A DNA stretch of 64,000 bases, from the NCBI GenBank assembly GCA_963662635.2, contig CAXXFC010000006.1, positions 104,932 to 168,931 of the forward strand. Direction: 5' to 3'. A program made the position numbers and the translations under genes. The stretch comes from Arenicellales bacterium (GTDB lineage Bacteria > Pseudomonadota > Gammaproteobacteria > Arenicellales > JAJDZL01). The notes under the pieces are model-generated. The model did not search any database and was not told the origin of the DNA. It was given only the letters and a program-made list of their open reading frames with translations. The stretch's first letter is position 1; each line of letters opens with the position of its first letter. Shown piece by piece: positions 30,189-55,700 of this stretch.

Positions 30189-30605
30189 TTACAAGAAAGA
30201 GGGCTTGATGCCAGTCTCCTTGAAGTCTCGAATATTACGCGTCGCTACCGTCATACCGCGAGAACGTACAATGGCAGCAATTTGAATGTCTACAATCGGT
30301 ATCACAATCCCAGAGGCACGATATGTTGCCGCCAAATCCGCGTAACTTCGAGCTGCCCCTTATTGTCAAACGGCAGCATGCGATTATCGAACGCTTCGCA
30401 AATTAAATTTTCAATTTTTAAAAATCAGCCTATCACGCCGTCGTCCCAAGGGTAGAACAGCCGCACCAAATCGCAACTCGACTTCGCCGACCGCTGAAAA
30501 GTACAGACTTTCCACAGATTGAATGTCAGCCCGCTTCTTTACGGCTGGGTTCGGGGATATGCGAATCAACCCGGGCACCACATTGGTATCAACAAGTATT
30601 GACAT
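30189..30605 (-). pseudogene. vapC: VapC (PIN-domain) toxin with an internal stop and a frameshift
   Basis: MSILVDTNVVPGLIRISPNPAVKKRADIQSVESLYFSAVGEVELRFGAAVLPLGRRRDRL, then a stop. It continues as ENLICEAFDNRMLPFDNKG, then in another frame AARSYADLAATYRASGIVIPIVDIQIAAIVRSRGMTVATRNIRDFKETGI. This is collinear with FitB/VapC-type PIN toxins. Confidence 0.75.
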
Positions 30606-30641
30606 GTTTGCAAAATTGGTCGAATGACGGAGGTTCGCGCC

Positions 30642-30676
30642 CTTGTGTATCGTCATTTGACCGATGTCGGGTAAGG
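30642..30676. repeat. Left terminal inverted repeat of element copy A
   Basis: See the element entry. The core GTCATTYGACYRATGTCGG(G)TAA is shared by all four termini. Confidence 0.75.
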
Positions 30677-31002
30677 GTTCGACCGCGTGAAGAACGTACA
30701 AGCGTTGGTGAATTGTGGTTCTGGTCGCTGCGCACAGGCGATCCCGGTCCGACAGCCGGACGACGAAATCCCAACTGTCCACACTCATCGCTTCAGTCCT
30801 GAGTCCACAAAGTGGTCTTCTTCCTGTCGGACGACAGGGACATCCAATTGAGTATTCAGGTCACTGTTCAGGCGGACGGCTGGCGGGCCATCCGACCGGA
30901 TCAATTCGCAGTATCGTAGTATCATGGAGACCGGACCGGTCATTGAAACTCTGACTGGATATTGCCGATGGGCAGATCAACCTGAGATTTGAGGTGGCGA
31001 AG

Positions 31003-31746
31003 ATGCCGGAACAGGAGAACCTGACGACTGAGGAAAGGATTCAGAAGATACGCGAGGAGACCGAGCGGATCAATCAGCGTGCCGCTGAAACGCGTGCGGA
31101 AACGGAAGAGATTCGGAAGCAATCCGAAAAGATCCGGAAGCAGTCGGAAAAGAGATGGAAGGAACTCAGGAAAGAAATTGCGAAGGTGAATGCGGCGGCT
31201 ACGAAGCTGGCCGCGACGGCGAAAGAACACGGCAAGCAGATCGGCGGACACAACAACAAGTTCGGAAGCTACACCGAGGCACTTGCGGAACCCTCCATCC
31301 GGCGGATTCTGGACGAGTATTTCGATGCCGACCACATGGAGTCGTACGAGCGCGGAAACCTGCAGCTGGATGGCTGGGGTGTCGCCCGCAACGGCACCGG
31401 TGCGGCCTATGTGGTGGAGGTCAAGAGCAAGTTTGAGCCTGAGCATCTGGATCAGGTGTGGCGACTGGTCAGGATGTTTCGCATTGAAAAGCCCGAGTTT
31501 GAGTCAAGGGAGGTGTATCCGATTCTTGCGGTAGTGGAGATCGACAAGGACCAGCGTGAGCTAGTGTGGAAGTCGGGCATTCACCTGATTGACGTGTCGG
31601 AAGGTGTGTTCGAGTGGACCCGGCCGCCCATGGGGTTCAGTCCGTGCGGCGATCATGGTGCGAATGGTGTCGTGCGAAGGGCGGTACCACGGCATCTGCG
31701 ACTGGTTGCGGACAGCAACAAGCACGGCGATGCAGGAGGTCAGTGA
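31003..31746 (+). CDS. Coiled-coil + putative PD-(D/E)xK nuclease-fold protein (element ORF, copy A)
   Basis: ATG 31003 is preceded by GAGGTGG. The N-terminal ~70 aa are charged heptad-like (EERIQKIREETERINQRAAETRAETEEIRKQSEK). The core has LQLDGWG...AAYVVEVKSKF (D...ExK spacing). Over a 179-aa core it differs from copy B at 13 positions. I could not find a DDE, HUH, serine or tyrosine recombinase motif. Confidence 0.75.
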   Translation: MPEQENLTTEERIQKIREETERINQRAAETRAETEEIRKQSEKIRKQSEKRWKELRKEIAKVNAAATKLAATAKEHGKQIGGHNNKFGSYTEALAEPSIRRILDEYFDADHMESYERGNLQLDGWGVARNGTGAAYVVEVKSKFEPEHLDQVWRLVRMFRIEKPEFESREVYPILAVVEIDKDQRELVWKSGIHLIDVSEGVFEWTRPPMGFSPCGDHGANGVVRRAVPRHLRLVADSNKHGDAGGQ

Positions 31747-31831
31747 GGAGGTAGCAGGTGGACCGGGATCATCTGCAGGTGAGGATAGACTGGCGGTTCA
31801 TGATCGGGAGGTACACATCAGGCTCAAGCGA

Positions 31832-31866
31832 CTTTACCCGACATCAGTCGAATGACTCGACATTAG
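31832..31866. repeat. Right terminal inverted repeat of element copy A
   Basis: The plus strand reads CTTTACCCGACATCAGTCGAATGACTCGACATTAG. Confidence 0.75.
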
Positions 31867-43674: not shown

Positions 43675-45345
43675 TCATCTCCAGGCCACGACATTCCGTA
43701 ATCGTCGCCAGACCGGACTGTCTCCCTCAGCCCCGGATTCAGGCAGCTCCCGGGCAGACTCTGCGCGCAAGTCCAAAAGATTGCGCTCCTCACCACCGAA
43801 CACCATGGCAACCAGATGAACCTCGCCACCTTGGCCGCGATACTGATCCCCGTAGCCGCGATCTCTCATCTGCCGCATCGCCGCATCAAGTGCCCTGTCG
43901 ATCCTGTGCCCGTGCCTGCCCCCGACCAGCTTCGTCTCGATCACATACACCTCGCCGGCATGCGTGACCACCAGGTCCGCCTTGCCCCGGTTCGACGCCA
44001 CCTCCCTCTGAACATCCGCTCCCACCGCCAGCAGGTACGTCTGCAGCACAATGAGATAGTGACTCTCCGATTCGGCTTTGCCGCTTTTGCGGTACCAGTC
44101 GTGCGGAATCGCCGCATACACAGCTCGCAACCGCTCGGCCAGCCCGCCGAAATCTTTCGACTCCAGACAGCCCAGCACAGCGTTTGCGTCACGACTCACG
44201 GCCTCCGCATCGCACCCCACATAAGCCAGAAGACCCGCGTTGAATCTCACACTCACCTCAAGGTTCGGATACTCCAGGGTGTAGATCGTATCCGGGCCGA
44301 CACGCTGCTGTTCTCCCACCGTCAGATACCCCGACTGGAACATCAGCGCGCGAAGATCGATGTCCCCGACATCAAACTGGACCAGCTGCTCCTTGGTGAC
44401 CGTTCCACCGTCAAACTCCATCAGCGGATAATTCCTCTCCCTGATCAGCCGGTACAGATAGGTCGGTGTCCCGCTCTGAAACCAATATGATTCAAATTGC
44501 CTTTTTTTCAACAGAAACAGGATGTCCCAGGGATTGTAGAGCCAGTGCTCGCCCAGCCAGTTGTAGCCGTTATACCAGCGACGGATCTCCTCGCGGTCCA
44601 ATCCCTCGAGCTCTGGCGCGAACACCGTGTCAAGCTCGTCATCGGTGAATCCGCAGATCGACGCATAGCGGGGATCCAGGGAGATGTCCTCAAGATTGTT
44701 CAGCCCGGAGAACAGGCTGACCTTCGAGAACATCGTGATGCCGGTGACAAACACAAACCTGACATGTCGGGCACAGCCCTTAATGATGCCGTAGAACCCC
44801 CGGAGGTAGTCCCGGTTCGCCCTCGCCAGCTCAGGGTTGTCCAAGACATCCAGGATCGGCTTGTCATACTCATCGACCAGTACCACCACCTGCTGACCGG
44901 CGCTCTGATGCAAACGATGAATCAGCGCTTCCAAATGATGTGATGCATTGATGCCGGTCTCACCTGTCTCAATACCGGCATCATCCGCAATCCGTTTCAA
45001 CTTGCCATGAATGTGCTGATCAATCTCTTCGGGACTGTTGTACTGACCGTCAAAACTCAGCCGCACGACAGGATGCCGGACCGACCAGTCCCAGCTGTCG
45101 TGGATCGCAAGCCCGCGGAACAAGTCCTCCTCGCCTGCGAAAAGCTCATGCAGGGTGTCGACCAGAAGACTCTTGCCGAAACGGCGCGGACGGGAAAGGA
45201 AATAGTGGCTCTCCAGACCGCCCGTCAATTGATGGATCAGGGAAGTCTTGTCAACGTAGTAGCCGTTGCCTTCGCGGAGCGTGCGGAAACTTTGAATTCC
45301 GGTCGGAATGAACTTGCGCTCATCAACTTTCTGTCTTTCACCCAT
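43675..45345 (-). CDS. AAA-ATPase_like (PF09820-type) + PDDEXK_9 nuclease-fold protein
   Basis: The N-terminus FIPTGIQSFRTLREGNGYYVDKTSLIHQL...FLSRPRRFGKSLLVDTL is the remembered hallmark of this family. The C-terminus EVASNRGKADLVVTHAGEVYVIETK is a PD-(D/E)xK pattern. The gene is markedly GC-rich. Confidence 0.8.
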   Translation of the reverse strand: MGERQKVDERKFIPTGIQSFRTLREGNGYYVDKTSLIHQLTGGLESHYFLSRPRRFGKSLLVDTLHELFAGEEDLFRGLAIHDSWDWSVRHPVVRLSFDGQYNSPEEIDQHIHGKLKRIADDAGIETGETGINASHHLEALIHRLHQSAGQQVVVLVDEYDKPILDVLDNPELARANRDYLRGFYGIIKGCARHVRFVFVTGITMFSKVSLFSGLNNLEDISLDPRYASICGFTDDELDTVFAPELEGLDREEIRRWYNGYNWLGEHWLYNPWDILFLLKKRQFESYWFQSGTPTYLYRLIRERNYPLMEFDGGTVTKEQLVQFDVGDIDLRALMFQSGYLTVGEQQRVGPDTIYTLEYPNLEVSVRFNAGLLAYVGCDAEAVSRDANAVLGCLESKDFGGLAERLRAVYAAIPHDWYRKSGKAESESHYLIVLQTYLLAVGADVQREVASNRGKADLVVTHAGEVYVIETKLVGGRHGHRIDRALDAAMRQMRDRGYGDQYRGQGGEVHLVAMVFGGEERNLLDLRAESARELPESGAEGDSPVWRRLRNVVAWR

Positions 45346-45787: not shown

Positions 45788-46015
45788 TGGCAATTCAATT
45801 ACAGATAACACGCTTCTTATTCTGGAAAATATTCCATTCTGCTTAGCTCTGCATTACAAAATCTAACCCCCTAGATGTGTCCAGCCAATCGACTAATGTC
45901 GGCTACGTCAACTCGTGCTGTTCCGAATTTGTGAGTGTCACGACATATCATTCCGTAAACAATTTGGCCCGACTGTCTGAAATCATCAGAGTGTTCATTC
46001 AAAGTCTTGCTTGAC

Positions 46016-50392: not shown

Positions 50393-50422
50393 TTACAATC
50401 CTAGCGTGCTATGGGACCCTAG
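50393..50422 (-). pseudogene. yafQ: 3' stub of yafQ displaced by element copy B
   Basis: The minus strand reads CTA GGG TCC CAT AGC ACG CTA GGA TTG TAA (LGSHSTLGL-stop). This is the missing GSHS..L C-terminus of a YafQ/RelE toxin, immediately outside the element terminus. Confidence 0.8.
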
Positions 50423-50451
50423 TGTCCGGTCATTCGACTAATGTCGTAAAG
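50419..50451. repeat. Terminal inverted repeat of element copy B (ORF-distal end)
   Basis: See the element entry. Confidence 0.8.
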
Positions 50452-50553
50452 TCGTTTCAGCCTGATGTGCGCATCCCCGGTCGTGAACTGCCAGTATACC
50501 CTCACCGGCAGATGATCCTGGTCCACCTGCCTCCTCCTCACTTACCTCTCGCA

Positions 50554-51273
50554 TCACTGCGCCTGCTGCTGTCCACGCCCCTTATCCGCGACCAGTCGCA
50601 GATGTCGCGGCACCGCCCGTCGCACGACACCATTCGCGCCATAATCGCCGCACGGCCTGAACCCCATGGGCGGCCGGGTCCACTCGAACACGCCGTCCGA
50701 CACGTCAATCAGGTGAATGCCCGATTCCCACACAAGCTCACGCTGGTCCTTGTCGATCTCAACCACTGCAAGAATCGGATATACCTCCCTTGACTCGAAC
50801 TCGGGCTTTTCAATGCGAAAATGCCTGACCAGCCGCCACACCTGATCCAGATGCTCAGGCTCAAACTTGCTCTTGACCTCCACTATATAGGCCGCTCCGG
50901 TGCCGTTGCGGGCGATACCCCAGCCATCCAGCTGCAGGTTTCCGCGCTCGTACGACTCCATGTAGTCGGCATCGAAATGCTCGTCCAGTACCCGCCGGAC
51001 GGAGGGTTCCACAAGCGCCTCGGTGTAGCTTCCGAACTTGTTGTTGTGTCCGCCGATCTGCTTGCCGTGCTCTTTCGCCGTCGCGGCCAGCTTCGTAGCC
51101 GTCGCATTCACCTTCGCAATCTTTTTACCGAGTTTCTTCCATTTCTTATCGGACCGCTTCCACCTTTCTTCGCGTTCCTCTTGCATTTTGACGACACGCT
51201 GATTGATCCGCTCGGTCTCCTCGCGTATCTTCTGAATCCTTTCCTCAGTCGTCAGATTCTCCTGTTCCGGCAT
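50554..51273 (-). CDS. Coiled-coil + putative PD-(D/E)xK nuclease-fold protein (element ORF, copy B)
   Basis: ATG 51273 (MPEQEN...) is preceded by GAGGTGC. It is a paralogue of 31003..31746. The coiled-coil segment is ~7 aa shorter and diverged, and the last ~9 aa differ. Confidence 0.75.
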   Translation of the reverse strand: MPEQENLTTEERIQKIREETERINQRVVKMQEEREERWKRSDKKWKKLGKKIAKVNATATKLAATAKEHGKQIGGHNNKFGSYTEALVEPSVRRVLDEHFDADYMESYERGNLQLDGWGIARNGTGAAYIVEVKSKFEPEHLDQVWRLVRHFRIEKPEFESREVYPILAVVEIDKDQRELVWESGIHLIDVSDGVFEWTRPPMGFRPCGDYGANGVVRRAVPRHLRLVADKGRGQQQAQ

Positions 51274-51492
51274 CTTCGGCACCTCGCATGTCAAGTTGAT
51301 TTCCCCGTCGGCAAAATCCAGTCAAATGTCTGATGACCGGTCCGGTCTCCATGATACTACGATACGGCGAATTGATCGGGTCGGATTGCCCAATTGGAGA
51401 TCCCTGTCGCCGGGCAGTCGGACCGGGATCGACTGTCCGCAACGACAGAACCGCAATTCACAACCGCTGGTGCGCGCTTCACACTGACAAAA

Positions 51493-51526
51493 CCTTACCG
51501 ACATTGGTCAAATGACTATACACTAG
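51493..51526. repeat. Terminal inverted repeat of element copy B (ORF-proximal end)
   Basis: See the element entry. Confidence 0.8.
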
Positions 51527-51777
51527 GCGTACCAATTGCAGACTCTCTTTACCCTCCAGTCTGTAGATCAACACTAAATTTGAGCTAAGTGACTATCCCG
51601 ATGATCACGCCAGTTACCGCTTAACGGGTGATCGCGATATCTCTGGTCGAGCGGGATGTCATTAGCCAAGTTCTTCACGATTTCTTCCAGACGAACTTCG
51701 ACTACTGATTTATATTTGCCCCTAAGTTCTCGCCTATATTCGCGCTTGAACCGGGTCGTCCGATCAATCTGGCGCAT
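51523..51777 (-). pseudogene. yafQ: yafQ (RelE-superfamily mRNA interferase) 5' part, frameshifted and interrupted by element copy B
   Basis: MRQIDRTTRFKREYRRELRGKYKSVVEV...DQRYRDHPLSGNWRDHRDSHL, then a 1-nt frameshift near 51586..51591. It continues as SSNLVLIYRLEGKESLQLVRL up to the element boundary. The start overlaps the restored dinJ stop. Confidence 0.8.
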
Positions 51778-52026
51778 TCATATCTTCAATTAATTCCTCA
51801 ACGCTGTTAAAACTCTTTACTTTACCTTCTCGCGCGTCATTCATGGCGGCAATTGTTTCCGCATTTGGAATGAGGGGATCAAACACAACCTTTTTTCTTT
51901 TGCGATTCGAATCAACAATAGACGAAAAGCATCGGAGACTGTTAGACCTGCGTCGGCCAAAACTTCTGTAGCTTCCTTTTCAATACTTTCGTCTACGCTT
52001 ATGCGTACGATCGAGGTACTCGACAT
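51764..52026 (-). pseudogene. dinJ: dinJ/relB-family antitoxin with a homopolymer frameshift
   Basis: MSSTSIVRISVDESIEKEATEVLADAGLTVSDAFRLLLIRIAKEK, then a frame change at an A6 run (plus-strand T6, 51891..51896). The other frame continues VVFDPLIPNAETIAAMNDAREGKVKSFNSVEELIEDMNAPD-stop, the expected DinJ tail. Confidence 0.75.
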
Positions 52027-52192
52027 ATAGTTCTCCGGTTCATACCGTTGCAAATTTGCAGGTTTTAATATACTCATTTACCTCAATTCGGTGTCTTGGT
52101 TTATATGTCGCATCAATTTTTGATTGTACGCGGCAAGTCCTGACTGGCATATACAATGTTTACTAAATTCATCTATGTTTAGGAAATTTGAT

Positions 52193-52415
52193 ATGACAAC
52201 ATTTAGTGTTCACTATGCTAAAACTCACTTGTCAAGAATATTGACTACCTTAGATGTATATGATGAGGTGATCATCACTCGTTATGGAATACCAATCGCA
52301 CGATTGATCCCCTATGCTCCGCAAATTACGAAACGACAACCTGGCAAGTTGAAAAAAAATTCAAGGCGGACGACTCTTTCTTTGACCAACTTCCGGATGA
52401 AGAACTGTCTGCTTG
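52193..52415 (+). pseudogene. Phd/YefM-family antitoxin with a homopolymer frameshift
   Basis: MTTFSVHYAKTHLSRILTTLDVYDEVIITRYGIPIARLIPYAPQITKRQPGKLK, then an A8 run (52352..52359). The +1 frame continues FKADDSFFDQLPDEELSAWSE-stop, the usual tail of VapC-associated Phd antitoxins. Confidence 0.7.
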
Positions 52416-52760
52416 GAGTGAATGAAGACTGAAAGAAGTCGCGCAATTATTACTTGATTCTCATACTTTTTGGGTGGCTAACCGATGACAAGCGACTCTC
52501 CAAGAAAGCACAAGATTCAACTCGCGACTCGAAACAGGTGTTTTCGTCAGTTTGATTTGGAGCTGCTTTGGAAATGTGAAAATCTAAGGTTGATCGCTAA
52601 AGGTGCAATAGGTTTTATCGGCAAACTGATTCGGAATACGATTTGATGGTTGACTTGTAGACCAGCTACCATAAAGGCTCATCTGCAACTTTCACGAAGC
52701 ATGCAAGCCAAGAACTCTTCCAGACATTTCAATGCTGTGCGACCGTAGGCAGATCTACAC
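52412..52760 (+). pseudogene. vapC: VapC (PIN) toxin remnant, heavily decayed
   Basis: ATGA overlaps the antitoxin stop. Fragments in three frames: LLLDSHTFW, WLTDDKRLSKKAQDSTRDSKQVF, LELLWKCENLRLIAKG. They follow the PIN pattern LLLDTH.flW......LS..A...i.......vS..S.WE..iK...gkL. The 3' limit is uncertain. Confidence 0.55.
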
Positions 52761-52788: not shown

Positions 52789-55700
52789 CTACTCTCTTCT
52801 CCCTTCAATCAACATCACAAGAGTCGGCAGAATGAACAGCGTGAATAGACCTGCAAATATCAGCCCACCTATCATGCTGACAACGAATGGTACCATATTC
52901 AACAGTGCTTCACTGCGCTCATATAGAAGTGGAGATAAACCAAGAATTGTGGTTAGACTAGTCAAAAACACCGCCCGAAATCGATGATGCATTGCTCCTG
53001 ATGCGATAGCGATAGCCGCAACATCGGGATTGGCCTTCCGCATTGTGTTGTATCTGTCGAGCAAAACAAGCGCGTCATTCACGATCACGCCCGACACCCC
53101 GACAACACCGAAGATTGACATGGTTGTGAAGTCCCAGCCGAGTATCCAGTGACTGAATATGGAACCGGAAAGCGCGATAGGGATACCAAATACAACAATA
53201 AGGGGTTTCCAGTAGCTTCGCAAGAAGGCCGCAACCAATGCATACATTGCAAGCAGTGCCAGGGGTACTACAATGGCCAACACCTTGAACATCTTGATTT
53301 CGTTGCGAATTCCTCCATCGATCTTGACTGTCAAGTCCGGATACTTTTCAAGCAAATTCGTTATGTATGTGTCTGAGATTTTTCTTCTCAATTTGATCGG
53401 AGCCACGGTGGCGACATCGGCGAAGCCTTGGACGAAGGCTGCATTCTCCCCGTTAATTCGGTTCAAAATGGCCAGTTCCCGCGTTTCGCTGATTTCTGCA
53501 ATTTCTGACAGAGGAGTCTCTCGACCAGACGAAGTACGAATTCTTTCAGTTGTAAACGCACTCAAATTATCTCTTTGGTCTTGAGGGTAACGAATTACGA
53601 CTTTAATCTCATCACGTTTTCTTTGGATCCGTTGAACTTCCAAACCATGGAAGCTTGCGCGCAATTGTGCTCCTAAACCAGCGGGTGTTATCCCGGCCAG
53701 CACGCCTTCCGGATTCAAATCGACTTTGATGTGACGCTTGCCTAAACTCATATTGTCTGTCAGACCGTAAATGCCGGGTTCGGTTTCAAGCATTTCCCTG
53801 AAATCGGCTGTGGCAGATTTTAATACTTCTCGATCTGAATGTCGTAGTGAGTAAGCAACATTGAAAATCAAAGGAAATGTGGATGATTGAAACTCAAGTC
53901 GCTCGATGGGAGGAGTGAGCCCGATATTCTCACGCCATGTGCGTTCGAATTCCGGAACGGAAAATTTTCGAAGCGGTGGATCATTCAAATTTACATGAAC
54001 CGATGCGATATGACTATTGCCCGAAGATTGATCGCCATGTCTACCAATACTTTGGACCGATTTGATCGGTACTCCGACAACTATGCTGATTGACTTGATC
54101 GGATCACCTTCAAACTGTTCATCTGTCAGTTCGGCCGCTCTGGCAATTCGTTTTGCCTCGACCAAAGTATCGGCAAAATGCGTACCAACCGGCATCTTAA
54201 TTTCAGCTGCAATTTTTCCGGAGACGTAACGCGATTGGTCGATCAATATGACGCGTACTGCATCTGAACCGATGAGCAGGAATGATACGATTACGACAAT
54301 GGCACTAACAATCGGAGTCAAAACAGTGTGACGAACACACAGCGAAACGATAGGAGCGATCACTCGTGATCGAAAGTTGTCCAGCGATAGTCTGACGCGG
54401 GCCTGTAAATCGCGAAGCGGTGAGCGGCTCCAGGGTTTTTCCTTGGAAAGATGGGCTGGCAAAATGAACAATGCCTCAACCAGCGAAACCAGTAGAACAA
54501 GAAATACGACATATGGAACAGCATTTAGAATCTGATAGCGCTCAGCAGTGATAAACAGAAACGGAATGAACGCAATGACTGTTGTGATCGCACCAATCGT
54601 AATCGGCCACGCTACTTCCTTCGCGCCGGATATCGCGGCCTCGAGAGCGTTCTTATCGCTTTGTCGTCTGACCGCAATGTTCTCACCAACCACGACAGCA
54701 TCATCGACAACAATTCCGATCATCAGAAAAAACGCAAAAACCGTACTTAGATTGACCGTCAAGTCAATCGTCGGGAAAAGTAATAGTGCACCAATGAAGG
54801 ACAACGGAATTCCGACGGTAATCCAGGTAGCGAGTCGAAGATCAAAGATCGCGACTAGACAGATGAATACAATAACGAGTCCGATCAGACTGTTCGATAT
54901 ATGTCGTCCCATTTGCTCAAGAGTGAAACCTGCCCGATCGTTCCAAATCGCTACCTTAATATGTTCTGGAAATGACTTTTTCGCCAGCCATGACAGAACA
55001 CTCTCCCTTATTTCGTCGATCGACTGACTCTCTTCCGCAGTAACATTCGCAAATACGGTAGGGATTCCGCTCAATTCCGAATGAATTTCGTAATCAGCGA
55101 AACCATCTGTAACAGTTGCGATTTGACCAAGTGTAATGACTGATCCGTTCAGTTTCTTAATGATCGGGATATTCTCAAATTCTTCGCCTGTAGTACGTTT
55201 TGAAATACTGTGAAGAACAATAGCGCCGGAATCGGTATTCAATTCTCCAAACGAAAGATTGATCGAGTCACGATTGATTTTGCTTGCGATTTCTGCAAAC
55301 GACAAGTTGTAACGCCGCAACTCTTCATCATTTAACTCAATAGTAATTTCGCGATCTCTTATGCCTTTCAATTCCACTTGCTGAGAGATTTCCGGTAGTT
55401 CCAGGAGTTCATGCTGCACTTCCTCAGCGGCTATTCGCAACTCATTTTCCGTTGCCAATTCCGATGAAATCGCGAGAGTCAATACGTCAACTTTACGTTT
55501 TATCAGTGTTATTTCAGGCTTTTCGGCACTTGGAGGAGGGAAACGATTGATTGCGTCGATAGAGTTGGTAACGTCATTGAGAACAACATCCGGATCAGCA
55601 AAGGTCTCAAGCTGGATGGTAATTTTTCCGAATCCTTGTTTAGCTTCAGAGATAACTCGGTCGACACCGCTAAGCCCGAGAACACTCTCCTCGACGCGAC

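What the first reader, a model, noticed from the sequence alone, without database searches (positions are those of the whole stretch)
50393..51777. In-silico excision of element copy B restores the yafQ reading frame exactly, giving direct evidence of transposition with a CTAG (or TA) duplication
On the minus strand the toxin frame reads ...ESLQLVRL and ends in CTA G at 51526..51523, at the element terminus. Immediately outside the other terminus the sequence reads CTA GGG TCC CAT AGC ACG CTA GGA TTG TAA (LGSHSTLGL-stop), at 50422..50393.

Removing 50423..51526 (the element plus one CTAG) yields ...LQLVRLGSHSTLGL-stop. That is the canonical YafQ/RelE C-terminus (LVR.GSHS.L.).

The element is therefore a clean simple insertion. 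CTAG is present at both junctions. The data cannot distinguish a 4-bp CTAG duplication from a 2-bp TA duplication with G/C belonging to the ends.
Basis: seen in the sequence. Interest (0 to 1): 0.75.

Follow-up and report, generated by a model that had tools for sequence, protein, structure and literature searches.

The report
IS630-derived cassette inserted in yafQ
A 1.1-kb transposase-less derivative of an IS630-family insertion sequence, carrying a nuclease gene as cargo, sits in a toxin gene at the CTAG target typical of that family, so this is a correct but ordinary insertion event.

Summary
CTAG lies at 50419-50422 and at 51523-51526. Removing 50423..51526 joins ...LQLVRL to GSHSTLGL-stop. 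The result is a 93-aa YafQ that matches Pfam YafQ_toxin end to end and aligns without a gap, at the DNA level, to an uninterrupted dinJ-yafQ operon from another MAG.

The locus was nevertheless already decaying. yafQ in the window carries an extra 1-nt deletion (~51582), and dinJ has a 1-nt frameshift (A-run 51891-51896) shared with a related MAG. That MAG has the same insertion, so the event is old.

The element is not a new transposon.
- Its last ~120 nt keep the C-terminal remnant of an IS630-family transposase plus that family's terminal repeat.
- Its left ~110 nt are an inverted, more decayed copy of the same right end.
- Five bona fide IS630-family ISs show the identical CTAG|TGT...ACA|CTAG junction.

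IS630 elements duplicate TA, preferentially within CTAG, so TA with terminal G/C belonging to the element is the likelier reading.

The only intact gene encodes a coiled-coil PD-(D/E)XK nuclease (DUF3782 type) under purifying selection. I read it as cargo. This nuclease family has 5-8 diverged paralogues per Arenicellales genome, which remains unexplained.

The parts
51523..51526 (-). Upstream junction CTAG. On the IS630 reading, TA at 51524-51525 is one copy of the target duplication and G51523 is the first base of the element.
   Evidence: The same CTAG|TGT junction is seen in five IS630-family ISs.
50419..50422 (-). Downstream junction CTAG. TA at 50420-50421 is the second copy of the duplication, and C50422 is the last base of the element on the IS630 reading.
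50423..51522 (-). Element copy B: 1100 bp between the two CTAGs (1102 bp if the terminal G/C are included). It is a non-autonomous IS630-family derivative (MIC-like cassette). Its G+C content is 55-63%, against 41-47% in the flanks.
50423..50541 (-). Right end. It holds the terminal repeat (50423-50446) and the remnant of the last ~28 codons of an IS630-family transposase (50446-50529, ...QVDQDHLPVRVYWQFTTGDAHIRLKRLY).
   Evidence: blastn shows 78% identity over 85 bp to the 3' end of an ISPna1-like IS. tblastn shows 61% identity to the Polaromonas transposase C-terminus. Against 7.3 Gb of plasmids it hits 6 records; 5 lie under an annotated IS630 family transposase and the sixth has no annotated feature.
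51413..51522 (-). Left end. It is an inverted and more decayed copy of the same IS630 right end. The terminal repeat core is 51499-51522, and the reverse complement still reads ...QSDRDRLSATTEPQFTTAGARFTLTKPY.
   Evidence: (the winB left end matches the inverted right end of L003, 72.6% over 113 nt). ISPna1 itself shares only a 13-bp terminal repeat between its two ends.
50554..51273 (-). Cargo gene of 239 aa: an N-terminal coiled coil followed by a PD-(D/E)XK nuclease domain (E92, D123, E139-x-K141 in the numbering of the 246-aa ORF 50554-51294, i.e. E85, D116, E132-x-K134 of this 239-aa CDS), plus a conserved C-terminal tail. It belongs to the DUF3782 type.
   Evidence: dN/dS between copies is about 0.3.
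51523..51777 (-). yafQ 5' part, with ATG at 51777. It contains a window-specific 1-nt deletion at about 51582, which splits it into two frames.
50393..50422 (-). yafQ 3' stub: CTA GGG TCC CAT AGC ACG CTA GGA TTG TAA (LGSHSTLGL-stop).
51764..52026 (-). dinJ/relB antitoxin pseudogene with a 1-nt deletion in the A-run 51891-51896. The deletion is shared with MAG CAXXJB01.
   Evidence: (the corrected protein hits Pfam RelB at 1.2e-13)
30646..31862 (+). Element copy A, 86% identical to copy B over the ~1 kb that aligns, with extra 71-nt and 35-nt segments in its leader. Its flanks are degenerate (CTTG / TTAG). It has the same two IS630-derived ends and an intact nuclease gene at 31003-31746.
   Evidence: The orthologous copy L006 is 99.5% identical including flanks.
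45878..45901 (+). Solo end of the same kind, matching the copy B right tip at 21 of 24 positions. It is preceded by CTAGATG.

Best explanation
Copy B is a non-autonomous derivative of an IS630-family (Tc1/mariner-type) insertion sequence.

Structure: the shell is two inverted copies of the right end of an IS630-like IS. Each copy carries the terminal repeat and a decayed remnant of the transposase C-terminus. The shell encloses a ~0.9-kb insert with a single intact gene, which encodes a coiled-coil PD-(D/E)XK nuclease. No transposase is present.

Inferred mechanism: a cognate IS630-family DDE transposase, supplied in trans, bound the two terminal repeats. It excised the cassette and inserted it at the TA of a CTAG in the Leu-Gly codons CTA GGG near the 3' end of yafQ. 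Repair of the 2-nt staggered cut then duplicated TA. Because the element ends in G...C, CTAG is regenerated on both sides.

Consequences: the insertion cut off the last 8 codons of the toxin. It happened before the window's organism and MAG CAXXJB01 diverged. Since then the disabled dinJ-yafQ locus has picked up frameshifts. The element has exchanged sequence with paralogous copies, and its nuclease gene has stayed under purifying selection.

What is shown: the anatomy, the homology to IS630 ends, the target reconstruction, the age of the event and the decay of the locus.

What is inferred from family knowledge: mobilisation in trans and the 2-bp (rather than 4-bp) duplication.
For: Target reconstruction.

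IS630 origin of the ends:
- 78% identity over 85 bp to the 3' end of an annotated IS630-family IS.
- that IS's transposase matches NCBIfam transpos_IS630 at 5e-69.
- the remnant peptides are 61% identical to the transposase C-terminus (L001: 39 aa, E 1.7e-10).
- against 7.3 Gb of plasmids the remnants hit 68 and 6 records. The hits that fall under an annotated gene are all IS630 family transposases.
- the left 110 nt are an inverted copy of the right end, still translating to ...QFTT..AR..L.K.Y.

Junction type:
- five independent IS630-family insertions (L203-L207) read CTAG|TGT...ACA|CTAG with unrelated outer flanks.
- PMC2170065: IS630-family elements insert at TA with a 2-bp duplication. 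It cites Tenzen & Ohtsubo 1991 for the preference for TA in 5'-CTAG-3'.

Absence of a transposase:
- the only ORF has no hit to any Pfam or NCBIfam transposase model.
- its fold is PD-(D/E)XK (NucS/EndoMS, E 8e-5).

Age and later history:
- the same insertion is present in MAG CAXXJB01.
- the dinJ frameshift is shared.
- the mosaic divergence of the element's 3' half indicates gene conversion.
Against: - No full-length IS630-family IS with matching ends was found. The window has none, and the collections that hold these genomes could not be scanned a second time. The trans-acting transposase is therefore assumed.
- Only copy B has perfect CTAG flanks. Copy A has CTTG/TTAG and L003 has CTAA/CTTA.
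- A 4-bp duplication cannot be excluded from sequence.
- Copies within one genome are 75-86% identical and none is recent, so there is no evidence that the cassette is still mobile.
- The nuclease gene is under purifying selection and is also multi-copy outside IS630 shells. The cargo reading does not explain this.
Confidence: 0.85

Rival explanations
1. The element is an autonomous transposon of a new kind. Its PD-(D/E)XK nuclease would be the mobility enzyme, for example a restriction-like cut leaving CTAG overhangs at the ends and at a CCTAGG target, followed by ligation.
For: - It is the only intact ORF. It is conserved with dN/dS about 0.3 and has a PD-(D/E)XK fold with an intact E..D..ExK motif.
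- The empty site is the palindrome CCTAGG.
- The terminal repeat contains the dyad GTCAnnTGAC.
- The nuclease family is multi-copy in every Arenicellales genome sampled.
Against: - Both ends are recognisably IS630-derived, down to the transposase C-terminal coding remnant.
- Genuine IS630 ISs with a DDE transposase have the identical CTAG|TGT...ACA|CTAG junction. This explains ends and target without invoking the nuclease.
- Nuclease subfamilies 2 and 3 are multi-copy but lack these terminal repeats.
- A PD-(D/E)XK nuclease has no known strand-transfer activity.
Confidence: 0.04
2. The duplication is the full 4-bp CTAG, as in the IS5 group of the IS5 family (YTAR targets), and the element is TGT...ACA without the terminal G/C.
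For: - Read inward, the four flanking positions are all fairly conserved across 9 ends: C 6/9, T 7/9, A 5/9, G 7/9.
- Sequence alone cannot separate the two models.
Against: - The ends are IS630-family, not IS5-family.
- The IS630/Tc1/mariner mechanism gives 2-bp TA duplications (PMC2170065).
- The base next to TGT is among the best conserved of the four (G in 7 of 9 ends, tied with T at the third position out), as expected if it belongs to the element.
Confidence: 0.08
3. The nuclease gene is itself a selfish, self-spreading gene that invaded an IS630 copy, replacing its transposase. It then contributes to, or benefits from, the cassette's spread (nested parasitism).
For: - Each Arenicellales genome carries 5-8 or more diverged paralogues.
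- In subfamily 2 the repeated unit includes about 300-450 nt of conserved non-coding leader and about 150-250 nt of trailer, without IS630 ends.
- Tandem paralogues exist.
- Gene conversion occurs between copies.
Against: - No defined ends, target duplication or empty site could be established for the units without an IS630 shell.
- All copies are old and diverged.
- Ordinary gene-family expansion under selection (for example a defence or repair role) fits equally well.
Confidence: 0.12

Closest known systems
IS630 family insertion sequences (ISPna1-like clade; IS630/Tc1/mariner superfamily)
   Same: - The terminal sequence is TGT..GTCAT....
- The last ~85 bp are 78% identical to an ISPna1-like right end and include the transposase C-terminal coding region.
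- The junction is the identical CTAG|TGT...ACA|CTAG.
- The size is similar, about 1.1-1.2 kb.
   Different: - There is no DDE transposase gene; only about 28-39 C-terminal codons survive.
- The left end is an inverted copy of the right end rather than the native left end.
- The interior is an unrelated nuclease gene.
Mobile insertion cassettes (MICs, e.g. MIC231 of Bacillus cereus) and MITEs
   Same: - IS-derived inverted ends enclose a passenger gene, with no transposase.
- The target duplication is that of the parent IS family.
- Several copies occur per genome.
- The shell is built from two copies of one IS end, as in many MITEs (known from the literature, from memory).
   Different: - The parent family is IS630 rather than IS231/IS4.
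- The cargo is a PD-(D/E)XK nuclease.
- The cognate full-length IS has not been identified.
DUF3782 coiled-coil PD-(D/E)XK endonucleases
   Same: - The architecture is an N-terminal coiled coil followed by a PD-(D/E)XK domain (PMC4786415).
- A profile search links the cargo family to proteins that pass the DUF3782 gathering score.
   Different: - The window's protein is itself below the Pfam threshold (E 0.05).
- It has a conserved C-terminal tail (PP..F..G..G...R.VP.HL.LV).
- The function of the whole family is unknown.
YafQ-DinJ type II toxin-antitoxin system
   Same: The rebuilt YafQ and DinJ match Pfam YafQ_toxin and RelB. The antitoxin and toxin genes overlap as in intact homologues.
   Different: Here the system is a triple pseudogene: the element insertion plus two 1-nt deletions.

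Membership tests
IS630 family (autonomous IS) | Encodes an IS630-type DDE transposase (NCBIfam transpos_IS630 / Pfam DDE_3) | tested here: not met
   The only ORF has no transposase hit. Only a remnant of 28-39 C-terminal residues survives.
IS630 family (ends and target) | Terminal inverted repeats homologous to those of family members | tested here: met
   There is 78% identity over 85 bp to the right end of an annotated IS630-family IS. The tip TGT..GTCAT is shared with L203-L207.
IS630 family (ends and target) | Insertion at TA (often within CTAG) with TA duplication | tested here: met
   The flanks read C-TA-G...C-TA-G and the empty site has a single CTAG. The same junction is seen in five family members. 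A 2-bp and a 4-bp duplication cannot be separated by sequence.
Mobile insertion cassette / MITE-type non-autonomous element | IS-derived inverted ends, no transposase, passenger gene, target duplication, more than one copy | tested here: met
   There are two full copies and one solo end in the window, and six copies in MAG CAXXJB01.
Mobile insertion cassette / MITE-type non-autonomous element | A cognate full-length IS with matching ends in the same genome or lineage to supply transposase | not testable with these tools
   There is none in the 64-kb window or in the fetched loci.
YafQ toxin (RelE/ParE superfamily) | Full-length match to the family profile, including the C-terminal L-V-R-x-G-S-H-S motif | tested here: met
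   Pfam YafQ_toxin at 6.8e-26, residues 2-91. Alignments to PDB 4nrn/2otr and to 93-aa homologues agree.
PD-(D/E)XK nuclease superfamily | Alpha-beta-beta-beta-alpha-beta core with E...D...(D/E)xK catalytic residues | tested here: met
   E92, D123, E139 and K141 are invariant in 30 sequences. The AF2 core has pLDDT of 80-91. Foldseek matches NucS/EndoMS, SfsA, R.BspD6I and Can2. Catalytic activity was not tested.
Pfam DUF3782 | Score above the Pfam gathering threshold (24.4 bits) | tested here: not met
   The window proteins score 14.3 and 11.2 bits. Several more distant relatives found by the profile search do pass, so the link is indirect.

The most novel reading that the evidence does not exclude
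The coiled-coil PD-(D/E)XK nuclease gene is itself a self-propagating selfish gene in Arenicellales. It has 5-8 or more diverged paralogues per genome, and each unit has its own conserved leader and trailer. In one lineage it displaced the transposase of an IS630 element, creating a hybrid that rides on IS630 ends.
Probability: 0.12. Interest if true: 0.65.

Novelty: new member of a known kind. Interest (0 to 1): 0.3.

Why it matters
- It closes the finding. The CTAG/CTAG junction and the restored YafQ C-terminus are the textbook signature of an IS630-family insertion, and the element is a transposase-less derivative of that family.
- It adds a documented example of an IS630-based cassette that carries and amplifies a nuclease gene.
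- It is a clear case of a toxin-antitoxin locus decaying after its toxin was knocked out.
- The part that might repay further work is not the insertion. It is the unexplained expansion of the DUF3782-type nuclease family in these (probably host-associated) Arenicellales genomes.

Tried and rejected
1. A new PD-(D/E)XK transposon, or a restriction-ligation model at CCTAGG. I held this as the working idea through. I dropped it when the ends proved to be IS630-derived.
2. An IS5-family (YTAR, 4-bp) parent. I rejected it because the end homology and the coding remnant are IS630.
3. A scan of metagenome contigs and viral contigs for the terminal-repeat core GTCATTYGACYNATGTCG. It gave 120 and 60 single chance hits. 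None contained the element or its protein.
4. The look-up of encoding contigs for P0002, P0004, P0013 and P0014, intended to obtain other copies or an empty site in the sister genomes. None was on record.
5. No near-identical intact yafQ allele exists among 5.8 billion proteins. The closest intact homologue is 72% identical, so the empty site is shown only through a homologue.
6. In-silico excision of copy A and of L003. No ORF was restored. Copy A lies upstream of a vapC pseudogene and L003 is intergenic.
7. Ends and target duplication of nuclease subfamily 2 (L009-L019). The boundaries are fuzzy, there are no inverted repeats, and no conclusion was possible.
8. Rfam scan of the window: no hits. 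PADLOC and PHROGs on the nuclease: nothing meaningful. The promoter scan found no consensus promoter inside the element.
9. Literature searches for PD-(D/E)XK transposases found nothing relevant.

Full report
**The observation**

On the minus strand the sequence reads ...GGTACGC CTAG TGTATAGTCATTTGACC... at 51526 downward, and ...GAATGACCGGACA CTAG GGTCCCATAGCACGCTAGGATTGTAA at 50422 downward. CTAG therefore lies at 51523-51526 and at 50419-50422, with 1100 bp between the two. Deleting 50423..51526 (1104 bp) gives ...VLIYRLEGKESLQLVRLGSHSTLGL-stop.

After correcting one frameshift (described below), the rebuilt protein is 93 aa.
- It matches Pfam YafQ_toxin from residue 2 to 91 (E 6.8e-26).
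- It aligns to the solved H. pylori toxin HP0892, which reads LVRLGSHSEL across the junction.
- It has the same length and C-terminus as a dozen 93-aa homologues, whose consensus is LQLVRLGSHSELGL.

At the DNA level the excised sequence aligns colinearly with an uninterrupted dinJ-yafQ operon from an Acidiferrobacterales MAG. There is no gap at the junction, and the alignment runs through the shared TTGTAATTCT at the stop codon (L202).

The first 67 codons of yafQ (51777..51574) are in a different frame from ...ESLQLVRL. The window has GCT-CAAAT where the orthologue in MAG CAXXJB01 (L001) and the intact homologue have GCTCCAAAT. The orthologue's protein, P0030, accordingly reads ...HLAPNLVLIYR...LQLVRL straight into the element.

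dinJ also has a 1-nt deletion, in the A-run at 51891-51896. The corrected protein hits Pfam RelB across the shift. The same deletion is present in L001, so it is real and inherited rather than an assembly error.

Next door, a Phd-type antitoxin followed by a PIN-toxin-like gene (52124-52700) and the vapC beside copy A are broken too. By contrast, the long ORFs elsewhere in the window are intact.

**Age of the insertion**

L001 carries the same element at the same CTAG in yafQ. Its flanks are 98-100% identical to the window. L006 is the orthologue of copy A and is 99.5% identical. Both insertions therefore predate the split of these two Arenicellales genomes.

Within the element, the 5' half is 98-99.5% identical between the two genomes. 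The 3' half is only 80-93% identical with indels, while the DNA just outside is 100% identical. This pattern points to gene conversion from a paralogous copy.

**First attempt at identifying the element**

The only intact ORF (50554..51273, 239 aa) has no Pfam or NCBIfam transposase match. An alignment of 30 relatives shows invariant E92, D123, E139 and K141. An AlphaFold model has a confident core, and Foldseek matches it to NucS/EndoMS, SfsA, R.BspD6I and Can2. It is therefore a PD-(D/E)XK nuclease behind a coiled coil.

A profile search of 1.84 billion representatives gave 1967 relatives, and several of the more distant members carry Pfam DUF3782. That architecture has been described as a family of prokaryotic endonucleases of unknown function (PMC4786415).

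**The decisive result**

A sensitive blastn of the element against PLSDB plasmids matched its last 85 bp, at 78% identity, to the 3' end of an annotated IS630-family IS on a Polaromonas plasmid. That IS's transposase matches NCBIfam transpos_IS630 at 5e-69.

The matching part of the element still translates to a transposase C-terminus:

- Element: QVDQDHLPVRVYWQFTTGDAHIRLKRLY
- Polaromonas transposase C-terminus: QARRDHLQAKVNWQFTTKDARVKLKRLY

In L001 the remnant is 39 residues long and 61.5% identical. Searched by tblastn against 7.3 Gb of plasmids, the two remnants hit 68 and 6 records, with best E-values of 6e-9 and 4e-4. The hits that fall under an annotated gene are all IS630 family transposases.

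The left ~110 nt of the element are an inverted and more decayed copy of the same right end. Their reverse complement reads QSDRDRLSATTEPQFTTAGARFTLTKPY. A genuine ISPna1, by contrast, shares only a 13-bp terminal repeat between its two ends.

The shell is therefore two inverted IS630 right ends, as in many MITEs, and the nuclease gene with its leader lies between them.

**The junction type**

Five independent bona fide IS630-family insertions were examined: four ISPna1-like copies in Polaromonas and one IS in Azotobacter. All read CTAG|TGT...ACA|CTAG, with unrelated DNA outside.

IS630-family elements insert at TA and duplicate it. IS630 prefers the TA within 5'-CTAG-3' (PMC2170065 and the Tenzen & Ohtsubo 1991 title cited there).

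The element's junction is thus the family signature. The likelier parsing is C-TA-[G TGT...ACA C]-TA-G, that is, a 1102-bp element with a TA duplication. Sequence alone cannot exclude a 4-bp duplication, because CTAG is a palindrome and the empty site is a single CTAG under either model.

Across nine ends read inward, the base next to TGT is G in seven. This fits G belonging to the element.

Older copies have degenerate flanks: copy A has CTTG/TTAG and L003 has CTAA/CTTA.

**Mechanism**

Shown:
- A transposase-less cassette with IS630 ends sits in a CTAG of yafQ with 4 bp of net extra flank.
- The event is old.
- The toxin-antitoxin locus decayed afterwards.

Inferred from family knowledge:
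- A cognate IS630 transposase acting in trans cut the cassette out and pasted it in.
- The duplication is TA.

The source of that transposase was not found. There is none in the window or the fetched loci, and the relevant genomes could not be scanned again.

**What remains odd**

The nuclease gene is kept under purifying selection (dN/dS about 0.3, including between the orthologous copies). The family has 5-8 or more diverged paralogues in each large Arenicellales genome. Subfamilies 2 and 3 are multi-copy, with conserved non-coding flanks in subfamily 2, but have no IS630 remnants or inverted repeats. One contig has two paralogues in tandem.

Whether this reflects a selfish gene or an ordinary family expansion could not be decided.

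**Verdict**

The finding is correct and its interpretation is supported. It is an ordinary event of a known kind: an IS630-family-derived non-autonomous cassette at its family's canonical target. The cargo is mildly unusual. Interest is low to moderate.

Noticed in passing
window 51891-51896 and ~51582: dinJ has a 1-nt deletion in an A-run, shared with MAG CAXXJB01. yafQ has a further 1-nt deletion (CC to C) found only in the window's genome. The toxin-antitoxin locus is decaying stepwise after the insertion.
   Followed up: yes
window 30411-30600 (minus) and downstream to ~30250: A PIN-domain vapC lies beside copy A. It is a pseudogene with several in-frame stop codons, and no vapB could be reconstructed by excising copy A.
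   Followed up: partly
window 52124-52700 (+): A Phd/YefM-like antitoxin ORF is followed by short ORFs that look like a broken PIN toxin (read by eye, not searched against a family library). It appears to be a second degraded toxin-antitoxin pair, immediately upstream of dinJ-yafQ.
   Followed up: no
window 45878-45901 (perhaps to ~45960): A solo IS630-type end matches the right tip of copy B at 21 of 24 positions and is preceded by CTAGATG. It may be an ~85-bp degenerate MITE.
   Followed up: partly
window 30615-30640 (minus): Another end-like fragment (21 of 26 positions match the right tip) abuts the left end of copy A. This suggests copy A landed next to an older remnant.
   Followed up: partly
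window 50423-51006 versus L001 3021-3612: The 3' half of the element is only 80-93% identical between the two genomes, while the flanks are 100% identical and the 5' half is 98-99.5% identical. This points to gene conversion from a paralogous copy.
   Followed up: partly
window 52800-53800 versus L001 1-1000: Part of the 1036-aa AcrB-like transporter gene is only 82-89% identical between the two otherwise 98-100% identical genomes. It is probably a recombined segment.
   Followed up: no
L200/L201 (ENA contig ctg521730l, 365 kb): Two nuclease paralogues (P0023, P0016) sit in tandem, 24 bp apart, next to a 144-aa HipA_C-only fragment. This is a third case of a nuclease copy adjacent to a broken toxin gene.
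   Followed up: partly
L009-L019 (OZ241837 and other Arenicellales MAGs): Nuclease subfamily 2 occurs in at least 6 copies per genome. Its repeated units are ~1.2-1.4 kb and include conserved non-coding leader and trailer, but no inverted repeats and no IS630 remnants. How these units spread is unexplained.
   Followed up: partly
window 43675-45345 (minus): A 556-aa ORF looks like the AAA-ATPase plus PD-(D/E)XK (PDDEXK_9-type) architecture. This was recognised by eye only and was not searched.
   Followed up: no
nuclease residues ~205-236 (window 50554-51294 ORF numbering): The C-terminal tail is highly conserved but predicted to be disordered (PP..F..G..G...R.VP.HL.LV; P208, P209, F212, G216, G219, R226, P229, L232 and L234 are invariant). 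Its role is unknown.
   Followed up: no
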